Source: a virus. From it: DNA of 16,197 nucleotides. Position 1 is the first letter of the stretch. Every line of letters starts with the position of its first letter. Positions 9,492 to 10,022 of this stretch are shown here, one piece after another. The stretch lies in UHGV virus genome UHGV-1963518, one strand, 5' to 3'. The notes under the pieces were generated by a model. The model did not search any database, was not told the DNA's origin, and saw only the letters and a list, made by a program, of their open reading frames with translations. A program made the position numbers and the translations under genes.

Positions 9492-10022
9492 ATGAGAAGT
9501 ACACATGGAAAAGCTGACCATCAACAGAAATTACGGTATGCCACAAAAATGGTACAGGAGACGCAACAGCAGGATAAAACCACATCGGCATATAAAGTGA
9601 TGCCCGGTAATCAGAACGCGCAGCAGAAGCCCACAGGGGCGACACCGCGGCGGCATATGACCAAACGCCAGCGCAAAAACCGCAGGCGCGTTAACCGCCT
9701 CACTGAGTTGTGGCCTGACTTATTCAGCCGGGAAGCACCGAAGCCGCTTAAGGTGGGGATATTCGACGACCTGATGCAGGATCTCGCCGTCAGGGGGCTG
9801 GCATTTGGGCCAGGGGCATTACGTGCGACGCTGGCATCTTATGCGCAGTCTCCGCGCTATTACCGCGCCCTGGTTGCTGGTGGGGCGCGTTACGACCTGA
9901 AAGGCCAGCCGTGCGGCGAGGTGACACCACAGGAACAACAGGACGCAGAAACGCGGCTGATGGCGCTGAATGAGAAGCGCAAACGTCAGCGCCGGGCAGC
10001 AAAGGAGAAAACAGGCGCATGA
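9492..10022 (+). CDS. FinO/ProQ-domain RNA-binding protein (putative RNA chaperone)
   Basis: 176 aa. PLKVGIFDDLMQDL...ALRATLASYAQSPRYYRALVAGGARYDLKGQPCGEVTPQE parallels, from memory, the ProQ N-terminal FinO domain (PLKIGIFQDL...LRLYTSSWRYL...RVDLDGNPCGEL). Basic C-terminal tail. Confidence 0.6.
   Translation: MRSTHGKADHQQKLRYATKMVQETQQQDKTTSAYKVMPGNQNAQQKPTGATPRRHMTKRQRKNRRRVNRLTELWPDLFSREAPKPLKVGIFDDLMQDLAVRGLAFGPGALRATLASYAQSPRYYRALVAGGARYDLKGQPCGEVTPQEQQDAETRLMALNEKRKRQRRAAKEKTGA

What the first reader, a model, noticed from the sequence alone, without database searches (positions are those of the whole stretch)
9492..10022. FinO/ProQ-domain RNA chaperone encoded on a satellite
The central region aligns by eye with the ProQ N-terminal FinO domain. 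A mobile-element-borne FinO-domain protein could control element or host RNAs, or interfere with helper-phage or host sRNA networks.
Basis: partly seen in the sequence, partly recalled or inferred. Interest (0 to 1): 0.55.

Follow-up and report, generated by a model that had tools for sequence, protein, structure and literature searches.

The report
FinO-domain gene on a phage satellite
The ORF does encode a FinO/ProQ-type RNA-binding domain and sits in the replication region of a small E. coli phage satellite, but databases already label it that way, this copy has a frameshift near its start, and nobody has tested what it does.

Summary
ORF 9492-10022 matches Pfam ProQ/FinO (E 3.7e-25, aa 64-168). 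Its predicted fold matches FinO, RocC and NMB1681, and the residues of the RNA 3'-end pocket are conserved.

The element is a 14.7-kb island at tRNA-Thr. It shares its backbone with EcCICFT073, an experimentally validated phage-inducible chromosomal island (PICI).

The gene belongs to a distinct, uncharacterised FinO-domain clade. It scores below NCBI's cut-offs for both FinO and ProQ. About 14% of complete E. coli genomes carry the FinO-PerC segment, and relatives occur in Salmonella and Citrobacter. In the loci examined with an intact island backbone the gene sits after replicase-ori-SSB, usually overlapping a PerC-family gene. dN/dS is 0.15-0.47.

Caveat: this copy lacks one A in an A-run at 9545-9549. 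RefSeq calls the same allele a frameshifted pseudogene. The domain itself is intact.

No RNA partner could be identified. PICI-borne ProQ/FinO genes have been listed in one 2026 survey but never studied.

Verdict: a new member of a known kind, of moderate interest.

The parts
9492..10022 (+). ORF as reported (176 aa): FinO-domain protein with a non-ancestral first 19 residues
9681..9995 (+). FinO/ProQ domain coding region (aa 64-168). The confidently folded part is aa 50-176 (nt 9639-10019). Pocket and contact residues are G89, R111, Y123 and R133.
9505..9600 (+). Ancestral start codon (9505) and the 31-codon reading frame it now opens (MEKLTINRNYGMPQK...). Its stop, TGA 9598-9600, overlaps ATG 9600-9602 of the main frame (UGAUG).
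9545..9549 (+). A5 run carrying the 1-nt deletion relative to intact homologues (CAGAAAACG to CA-AAAATG). This is the frameshift site.
10019..10306 (+). PerC-family gene whose ATG overlaps the FinO stop codon (ATGA)
10309..10342 (+). Intrinsic-terminator-like hairpin (10-bp GC-rich stem) plus tail, directly after perC. Compensatory stem changes are seen in L011.
8790..9008 (+). Truncated SSB gene remnant. Intact SSB precedes the FinO gene in most of the related islands examined.
9010..9490 (+). AT-rich insert (31-34% GC against 61-63% in the FinO domain). It carries a 111-aa hydrophobic ORF (9077-9412) and replaces the canonical SSB-FinO junction and ribosome-binding site.
8276..8498 (.). Replication origin: ten GGTGAACAG iterons in two sets around an AT-rich core, directly after the primase gene
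   Evidence: the layout is described for E. coli PICIs in PMC6092414
6209..8262 (+). DUF4222 gene (6209-6451) overlapping the D5/P4-type primase-helicase gene (6448-8262)
220..1434 (+). Tyrosine integrase of the island
2555..2752 (+). AlpA-family regulator
38..59 (.). attL core, inside the 3' end of tRNA-Thr (1-50)
14715..14735 (.). attR core, a repeat of the tRNA 3' end. The island is therefore about 14.7 kb.

Best explanation
The ORF is a member of an uncharacterised clade of FinO-domain proteins. Each has a disordered N-terminus of about 50 aa that becomes basic just before the FinO domain, followed by the domain itself and a basic C-terminal helix. The clade is carried by EcCICFT073-type phage-inducible chromosomal islands (PICIs). 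In the islands examined with an intact backbone the gene lies just downstream of the replication module (DUF4222, replicase, iteron ori, SSB), usually translationally coupled to a PerC-family gene.

Shown: domain identity, fold, conserved 3'-end pocket residues, synteny, purifying selection, and satellite context.

Inferred: like FinO with FinP, FopA with Inc, and RocC with RocR, the protein grips a hairpin-plus-3'-tail RNA through the Tyr123/Arg133/Gly89 pocket and Arg111. It would shield that RNA from nucleases and speed its pairing with a target mRNA. The most likely client is an RNA of the island itself, or of its helper phage, that sets the timing of island replication or induction.

In this window the gene carries a 1-nt deletion at codon 15. 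Only an N-terminally altered product (start 9492) or a truncated one (reinitiation at AUG 9600) can be made. Either would keep the whole folded domain.
For: Identity: Pfam E 3.7e-25. PDB sequence hits to ProQ, FinO, NMB1681 and RocC. Foldseek top hits 1dvo, 7rgt, 7rgu and 3mw6 at probability 1.00.

RNA-contact residues: G89, R111, Y123 and R133 align with RocC G52, R75, Y87 and R97. Those RocC residues form the 3'-nucleotide pocket and hairpin contact (PMC9674577). They are invariant or nearly invariant in 18 family members.

Functional constraint: pairwise dN/dS is 0.15-0.47 overall and 0.14-0.50 over the domain. Most protein clusters are full length at 165-185 aa.

Module membership: the order replicase-ori-SSB-FinO-(PerC) recurs with three unrelated replicase types (D5/DUF5906, DUF927, AAA_25) and several integrases. 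It is seen in Escherichia coli, E. ruysiae, E. albertii, Salmonella and Citrobacter.

Satellite identity: the backbone is shared with EcCICFT073, with primase 50.5% and PerC 52% identical. The ori has iterons, the att repeats lie 14.7 kb apart, and no structural or lysis genes were found among the ORFs scanned.

Precedent: the mobile-element FinO-domain proteins studied so far, FinO and FopA, act mainly through an antisense RNA of their own element, although FopA binds further RNAs as well (PMC9977716; PMC7491321).
Against: No partner RNA was identified. Rfam finds only the int-alpA motif and a tRNA fragment in the window.

The conserved minus-strand hairpins I found at the antA and DUF4222 starts also occur in the FinO-less EcCICFT073, and they lie in conserved coding sequence.

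The gene is optional. EcCICFT073 and EcCIMP1 are functional PICIs without it (PMC6092414, PMC11773190).

The helix N-cap Ser that is highly conserved in the family is Gly106 here, and the flanking lysines are absent.

This copy is frameshifted and has lost the canonical GGAG ribosome-binding site. PGAP calls it a pseudogene.
Confidence: 0.55

Rival explanations
1. In this window the gene is simply a recent pseudogene. The 5' frameshift and the loss of the ribosome-binding site abolish useful expression, and the intact-looking domain only reflects how recent the lesion is.
For: There is a 1-nt deletion at codon 15, the GGAG motif is replaced, and 4 nt are inserted before the ancestral ATG. PGAP marks the allele 'frameshifted' in ABU 83972 and APEC IMT5155. 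The neighbouring SSB gene is also truncated by an AT-rich insert. Carriers of the allele are 99.4-100% identical over the 181-nt 5' segment compared, too close to show selection either way.
Against: The allele has spread to 11 complete genomes from chicken, duck, swine, human and a marsupial without further lesions. An in-frame ATG at 9492 keeps a 176-aa ORF open. The upstream frame's UGA overlaps AUG 9600 (UGAUG), a classic reinitiation arrangement. The lost N-terminus is predicted to be disordered.
Confidence: 0.3
2. It is an accessory, host-directed regulator. Made together with PerC, it acts as a ProQ paralogue that rewires host sRNA/mRNA networks (virulence, stress) rather than the island's own life cycle.
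For: It is translationally coupled to a PerC-family gene. PICI PerC variants have been shown to alter LEE expression (PMC11773190; PMC6092414). The gene is dispensable for PICI function, since EcCICFT073 and EcCIMP1 lack it. The FinO domain alone can bind many RNAs, as in NMB1681 and ProQ (PMC9674577).
Against: Its position is fixed next to the replication module across islands with unrelated replicases and integrases, whereas cargo in these islands sits in variable hotspots. In the most abundant variant PerC is disrupted while the FinO gene is kept.
Confidence: 0.2
3. It is a weapon or lever against phages. It binds antisense or terminator-bearing RNAs of the helper or of competing phages and changes their lysis-lysogeny decisions or late expression to the satellite's advantage.
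For: Satellites of this family carry several helper-directed functions, including antirepressors (AntA), an Icd-like protein and a TerS-like protein. ProQ is reported to bind phage-encoded sRNAs (PMC9977716). That lambdoid and P22-like helper phages use short terminator-ended antisense RNAs is my own knowledge.
Against: There is no direct evidence. No PADLOC defence model matches. The helper of this island is unknown.
Confidence: 0.15
4. The domain acts on DNA rather than RNA, working with SSB at the origin on hairpinned single-stranded DNA during island replication.
For: It lies directly after SSB and the ori in most of the islands examined with an intact backbone. A phage-plasmid also carries ProQ/FinO and SSB genes within 1 kb of each other.
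Against: Among the FinO-domain proteins covered in the papers read here, only RNA ligands are described. The 3'-pocket contacts the 2' and 3' hydroxyls of the terminal ribonucleotide.
Confidence: 0.05

Closest known systems
FinO of F-like plasmids (PDB 1dvo)
   Same: It is the best structural match (Foldseek E 6.7e-7, 30% identity over 102 columns). Size is similar at about 180 aa. Both are carried on a mobile element and have basic extensions on either side of the domain. The Tyr/Arg pocket is conserved.
   Different: It scores 65.7 bits against NCBIfam FinO, whose cut-off is 136, and only model positions 65-179 match, so the FinO N-terminal region is not shared. There is no tra operon and no FinP/traJ pair. 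The element is a phage satellite, not a conjugative plasmid.
ProQ of enterobacteria (N-terminal domain, PDB 5nb9)
   Same: It is the best sequence match (profile E 2.6e-17). The motifs PLKxGIF, LRxAL, RY and RxDLxGxPCGE are shared.
   Different: It scores 60.1 bits against the ProQ equivalog cut-off of 127. The protein ends right after the FinO domain, so it has no linker and no Tudor-like C-terminal domain. It is island-borne and present in only some strains.
FopA (YafB) of IncI plasmid pCol1B9, with Inc RNA and repZ
   Same: Both are FinO-domain-only proteins on a mobile element, each with its own basic N-terminal extension. FopA controls replication-initiator translation through an antisense RNA (PMC7491321; PMC9977716). 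That is the closest functional analogy to a gene placed next to a replicase.
   Different: I did not compare it directly with the FopA sequence. Plasmid relatives found by tblastn are at most about 40% identical over the domain only. No Inc-like RNA was found here.
Minimal ProQ NMB1681 (Neisseria) and RocC (Legionella)
   Same: The domain fold is shared (TM-score normalised to the target up to 0.83). The 3'-end pocket residues are conserved.
   Different: Both are chromosomal host regulators. RocC has a long C-terminal extension. The N-cap Ser is Gly here.
EcCICFT073, prototype E. coli PICI
   Same: The island backbone is the same: int, alpA, YlcI/YnfO, icd-like, small ORFs, DUF4222, primase, iteron ori, SSB, PerC.
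   Different: EcCICFT073 goes straight from SSB to PerC with no FinO-domain gene. It carries capsid-like genes and uses a different att site.

Membership tests
ProQ/FinO domain superfamily (Pfam PF04352) | Profile match above the curated threshold | tested here: met
   88.5 bits against a cut-off of 27, E 3.7e-25, model positions 5-108 of 109
ProQ/FinO domain superfamily (Pfam PF04352) | FinO fold (helical bundle with a beta-hairpin) | tested here: met
   AF2 pLDDT is above 90 over most of residues 60-160. Foldseek probability is 1.00 to 1dvo, 7rgt, 7rgu, 3mw6 and 6s10.
ProQ/FinO domain superfamily (Pfam PF04352) | 3'-nucleotide pocket residues (RocC Gly52, Tyr87, Arg97) | tested here: met
   G89, Y123 and R133 align with them. 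Y123 and R133 are invariant in the clade and G89 is nearly so. Their roles are described in PMC9674577.
ProQ/FinO domain superfamily (Pfam PF04352) | Helix N-cap motif (Ser cap plus Arg75-equivalent, flanking Lys) | tested here: inconclusive
   R111 (RocC R75) is present. The cap position is Gly106 rather than Ser, and RocC K71 and K73 correspond to Pro107 and Ala109.
ProQ/FinO domain superfamily (Pfam PF04352) | Binds structured RNA 3' ends and has chaperone activity | not testable with these tools
   Needs EMSA, CLIP or strand-exchange assays
FinO sensu stricto (F-like plasmid fertility inhibition) | Reaches the NCBIfam NF010317 cut-off and matches the FinO N-terminal region | tested here: not met
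   65.7 bits against 136. Only model positions 65-179 of 186 are matched.
FinO sensu stricto (F-like plasmid fertility inhibition) | Encoded in a tra region with a FinP/traJ antisense pair | tested here: not met
   No conjugation genes are in the window. No FinP-type Rfam hit.
ProQ (chromosomal global RNA-binding protein) | Reaches the NCBIfam NF003434 cut-off and has the linker plus C-terminal Tudor-like domain | tested here: not met
   60.1 bits against 127. Model positions 6-120 of 205 are matched, and the protein ends 8 residues after the Pfam domain match ends (aa 168 of 176).
FopA clade | Sequence clustering with FopA/YafB and the FopA-type N-terminal domain | not tested
Plasmid hits are at most about 40% identical over the domain.
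PICI, Gram-negative EcCICFT073 type (the host element) | int, then an alpA regulator, then a primase/rep with an iteron ori, all in one orientation | tested here: met
   Synteny and homology to EcCICFT073 are shown.
PICI, Gram-negative EcCICFT073 type (the host element) | About 15 kb, bounded by att repeats, no phage structural or lysis genes | tested here: met
   The att cores at 38-59 and 14715-14735 give a 14.7-kb island. No structural or lysis family matched among the ORFs scanned.
PICI, Gram-negative EcCICFT073 type (the host element) | Induction and packaging by a helper phage | not testable with these tools
   The only hints are a TerS-like HTH protein (phrog_57, E 1.7e-6) and a repeat array after it.
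P4-like satellite (the host element) | psu, delta and sid capsid-hijacking genes | tested here: not met
   No such families matched among the ORFs scanned. The P4-family primase C-terminal model scores below its cut-off (97.1 against 108.7).

The most novel reading that the evidence does not exclude
The FinO-domain protein is a dedicated satellite riboregulator. It would pair with a so-far unannotated antisense RNA of the island, for example one ending at the conserved hairpins just inside the antA or DUF4222-replicase reading frames, or with a helper-phage antisense RNA. Through that RNA it would gate satellite replication or induction. That would be the first RNA-chaperone-based layer in satellite-helper biology, and an island-encoded substitute for host ProQ.
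Probability: 0.15. Interest if true: 0.7.

Novelty: new member of a known kind. Interest (0 to 1): 0.4.

Why it matters
FinO-domain proteins on plasmids are the classic case of a mobile element bringing its own RNA chaperone to run an antisense-RNA switch: FinO/FinP for conjugation and FopA/Inc for copy number. A separate clade of such proteins lies at the same position next to the replication module in a PICI family found in the FinO-PerC segment search in about one in seven complete E. coli genomes. This suggests that phage satellites may also use post-transcriptional control, which current PICI models built on AlpA, Rpp and antirepressors do not include. The system is easy to test, because natural islands exist with and without the gene and a natural 5'-frameshift allele is available. 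The specific copy in this window is a weak starting point because it is frameshifted. An intact allele such as the P0004 or P0054 type would be the one to study.

Tried and rejected
- **Known RNA partner in the window.** Rfam at E<=1 gave only the int-alpA motif, a tRNA fragment and noise. A C4 antisense RNA exists in one Salmonella relative (L009) but in none of the other five related loci scanned at gathering threshold, and not in the window at E<=1.
- **Antisense-RNA candidates.** Minus-strand terminator-like hairpins directly after the start codons of antA (2861-2836) and DUF4222 (6240-6213) are strikingly conserved. They lie in conserved coding motifs, I found no convincing minus-strand promoter, and the DUF4222 hairpin is also present in the FinO-less EcCICFT073. 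I do not claim them as ligands.
- **Programmed -1 frameshifting at the A-run.** Rejected. Intact homologues need no shift, there is no X XXY YYZ heptamer and no nearby stimulator, and only 11 genomes carry the allele.
- **Lambda-type cosN.** No match within 2 mismatches.
- **Rpp identity of the TerS-like protein.** No PDB hit and no homologue in EcCICFT073. I call it only 'TerS-like'.
- **Species-level survey in GTDB genomes.** It returned only two loci because of the one-genome-per-species design.
- **Defence-system role.** No PADLOC hit for the FinO-domain protein or PerC.
- **Strict FinO-PerC co-dependence.** Rejected. PerC occurs without the FinO gene (EcCICFT073, EcCIMP1), and the FinO gene occurs with a disrupted PerC.

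Full report
**1. The observation**

The window has an ATG-to-TGA ORF of 176 codons at 9492-10022 on the + strand. Residues 64-168 match Pfam PF04352 (ProQ/FinO) over essentially the whole model, at 88.5 bits against a cut-off of 27 and E 3.7e-25.

A sequence search of the PDB finds the E. coli ProQ N-terminal domain (2.3e-12), FinO (3.8e-11), NMB1681, Legionella ProQ and RocC. A profile of 18 family members improves these to 2.6e-17 and 1.6e-14.

An AlphaFold2 model is disordered for residues 1-49 and confident for 50-176. Its Foldseek hits in the PDB are FinO 1dvo, RocC 7rgt/7rgu and NMB1681 3mw6, all at probability 1.00. Everything after the FinO-domain entries is noise. The by-eye alignment was right and is far beyond chance.

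**2. A correction to the ORF**

Homologues begin MTKLTINRKPKGIYGTPQK.... In the window that N-terminus (MEKLTINRNYGMPQK) is read from ATG 9505, in a different frame from 9492.

A DNA alignment with an intact homologue shows a 12-nt in-frame deletion. It also shows a 1-nt deletion in an A-run (CAGAAAACG becomes CA-AAAATG, A5 at 9545-9549) and loss of the GGAG ribosome-binding site. Restoring one A gives a 173-aa protein colinear with the family.

The first 19 residues of the reported ORF are therefore frame-shifted sequence. The same allele occurs in 11 of 5426 complete E. coli genomes from several hosts, so it is not a sequencing error. PGAP annotates it as 'ProQ/FINO family protein, frameshifted' in ABU 83972 and APEC IMT5155.

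The lesion precedes the folded part. A product could still arise in two ways. One is initiation at ATG 9492. The other is reinitiation at AUG 9600, because the 31-codon frame opened at 9505 ends in a UGA that overlaps that AUG as UGAUG. Reinitiation would give a 140-aa protein that keeps the basic stretch and the whole domain. Whether either happens is inference.

**3. The element**

Bases 1-50 are the 3' part of a tRNA. It is tRNA-Thr next to proA in the near-identical APEC IMT5155 locus. Its 3' end is repeated at 14715-14735, which delimits a 14.7-kb island.

The gene order is:
- integrase (220-1434)
- an int-alpA RNA motif
- an unknown gene
- AlpA
- AntA antirepressor
- YlcI/YnfO on the minus strand
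- an Icd-like gene
- small ORFs
- DUF4222 overlapping a D5/P4-type primase-helicase
- ten GGTGAACAG iterons in two sets (8276-8498)
- an SSB remnant
- the FinO-domain gene
- PerC
- a terminator
- small ORFs
- a protein with a TerS-like helix-turn-helix
- a repeat array
- a GapS1 defence gene

No structural or lysis gene was found among the ORFs scanned.

The validated PICI EcCICFT073 has the same backbone, with primase 50.5% and PerC 52% identical (PMC6092414). P4-type psu, delta and sid genes are absent.

EcCIMP1, another validated PICI, uses the same thrW site beside the same MarR/Vat island, but it is a different element and has no FinO gene.

**4. The gene family**

At least 247 protein clusters at 90% identity match, most of them 165-185 aa. 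They come from E. coli, Shigella, E. marmotae, Salmonella and Citrobacter. A further layer of Salmonella proteins is 40-50% identical to the Citrobacter member used as the query.

The 2.1-kb FinO-PerC segment is found in 747 of 5426 complete E. coli genomes, always on the chromosome and in up to six copies. Phage and plasmid relatives are at most about 40% identical, over the domain only.

NCBIfam places it below the cut-offs for both FinO (65.7 against 136) and ProQ (60.1 against 127), matching only the domain part of each model. It is therefore a separate clade, with neither the FinO N-terminal region nor the ProQ linker and Tudor-like domain.

Pairwise dN/dS among eight loci is 0.15-0.47 overall and 0.14-0.50 for the domain. 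It is generally similar or higher for the disordered N-terminus, at 0.12-0.84.

The RocC residues that form the 3'-nucleotide pocket and the main hairpin contact are G52, Y87, R97 and R75 (PMC9674577). They correspond to G89, Y123, R133 and R111, which are invariant or nearly so. The N-cap Ser is Gly106 and the flanking lysines are missing. Basic stretches before the domain (KRQRKNRRR) and after it (KRKRQRR) may compensate, but this is inference.

**5. Position in the island**

In every related locus I retrieved that keeps the island backbone, the gene follows the replication module. The order DUF4222-replicase-ori-SSB-FinO holds whether the replicase is D5/DUF5906, DUF927/TOPRIM or an AAA_25 helicase, and with integrases only 29-99% identical. 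One variant (the P0107 type) lies in a degenerate island next to a Dnd system.

Where intact SSB directly precedes the gene, 36-53 nt separate SSB from FinO, which leaves no room for a separate promoter. The FinO stop overlaps the PerC start (ATGA), and a strong hairpin terminator follows PerC, with compensatory stem changes in a Citrobacter locus.

The gene is not essential to the element type. EcCICFT073 goes directly from SSB to PerC. The commonest E. coli variant has an insertion that disrupts PerC but keeps FinO.

In the window itself, an AT-rich segment (31-34% GC, 9010-9490) carrying a 111-aa hydrophobic ORF has truncated SSB and replaced the FinO 5' region.

**6. Mechanism**

Domain, fold, pocket residues, synteny and constraint are shown. 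The activity is inferred from family knowledge: recognition of a hairpin plus 3' tail, protection of the RNA and acceleration of antisense pairing. The client is unknown.

I looked for one:
- Rfam finds nothing suitable in the window.
- One Salmonella relative has a C4-type antisense RNA upstream of its small ORFs, but it is not general.
- Two minus-strand terminator-like hairpins sit immediately inside the antA and DUF4222 reading frames. They are invariant across loci whose proteins differ, with one compensatory variant. They overlap conserved peptide motifs, lack a convincing antisense promoter, and the DUF4222 one is present in the FinO-less EcCICFT073.

These hairpins are leads, not evidence. 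Because the gene is fixed beside the replicase, and because of the FopA/Inc/repZ precedent, I rank control of the island's own replication or induction first. The rivals are a pseudogene in this copy, a host-directed accessory regulator acting with PerC, and an anti-helper role.

**7. Novelty**

RefSeq already names the gene. A 2026 survey of Enterobacter cloacae lists a ProQ/FinO-like chaperone and PerC among PICI accessory genes (PMC13612085). A Vibrio study mentions a ProQ/FinO-like regulator on satellite-plasmids (PMC13230959).

The main texts of the PICI papers on EcCICFT073 and EcCIMP1 do not mention it, nor do the searchable supplements of the 2018 paper. The FinO-family review treats phage- and island-borne members only in general terms. 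I found no functional study.

It is a new, uncharacterised member of a known kind. The lead is moderately interesting, but this copy is a poor representative of it.

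Noticed in passing
window 14724-15142 (repeat of 48-478) and 14884-15222: The region after attR repeats the attL-proximal 430 nt at 90-99% identity. 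It includes the first 112 codons of a second integrase, the remnant of a tandem island. In APEC IMT5155 and E. coli MP1 the same remnant borders a MarR/Vat toxin island at thrW.
   Followed up: partly
window 12339-13937 (+): The 532-aa cargo gene matches the NCBIfam antiphage GapS1 family (441.8 bits against a cut-off of 320). Related islands carry other cargo here (DUF4747, GAPS4-type nuclease, DNA methyltransferase/DUF262), so this is a defence hotspot at the 3' end of the satellite.
   Followed up: partly
window 3623-5209 (+), with 4348-4653 (-) and 4090-4290 (-): The 528-codon ORF is probably not one gene. Only its last ~48 residues match a known family, the Icd-like cell-division inhibitor; the homologous gene in IMT5155 is 73 codons (about 4988-5209 here). 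The opposite strand encodes a YlcI/YnfO protein, and several minus-strand terminators lie inside it. The ~1.3 kb of open frame upstream of icd is unexplained.
   Followed up: partly
window 9010-9490, ORF 9077-9412 (+): An AT-rich (31-34% GC) insert encodes a 111-aa hydrophobic protein with no family match. Among the loci compared it is present only in the frameshift-allele lineage, and it truncates SSB.
   Followed up: partly
window 11486-11686: There are five copies of AAAAGTGTCAA, four direct and one inverted, where 0.56 are expected by chance. They lie just downstream of the TerS-like HTH gene (10944-11480), and the intergenic blocks that contain them are conserved in Salmonella and Citrobacter relatives. 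This may be a packaging (cosB-like) or regulator-binding array.
   Followed up: partly
window 2836-2861 (-) and 6213-6240 (-): Terminator-like hairpins with T-tails lie on the minus strand immediately inside the antA and DUF4222 reading frames. They are invariant at synonymous positions across divergent islands, with one compensatory variant, and are also present in EcCICFT073. They could be antisense-RNA terminators or mRNA structures controlling translation of the antirepressor and of the replicase operon.
   Followed up: partly
window 1479-1546 (+): An int-alpA RNA motif (Rfam RF02996, 45.5 bits against a gathering score of 35.8) lies just after the integrase gene. It is also present in three related loci. 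Its function is unknown.
   Followed up: no
L009 5791-5878 (+), a Salmonella relative: A C4 antisense RNA (RF01695, 71.1 bits), of the P1/P4 immunity-RNA type, lies upstream of the small-ORF block of a FinO-carrying island. It is not detected in the window or in the other five related loci scanned.
   Followed up: partly
window 2375-2413 (+) and 1557-2360 (+): Two tandem copies of a short hairpin (TACCCTGAGGGT) followed by T-runs end an unknown 267-aa gene inserted between int and alpA. This is a second variable cargo slot.
   Followed up: no
L005-L008, about 10479-11120: In the most abundant E. coli variant of the FinO gene, an insertion of about 400 nt encoding a 138-aa ORF replaces the FinO C-terminal tail and the start of PerC. 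What remains of PerC is a frameshifted remnant.
   Followed up: partly
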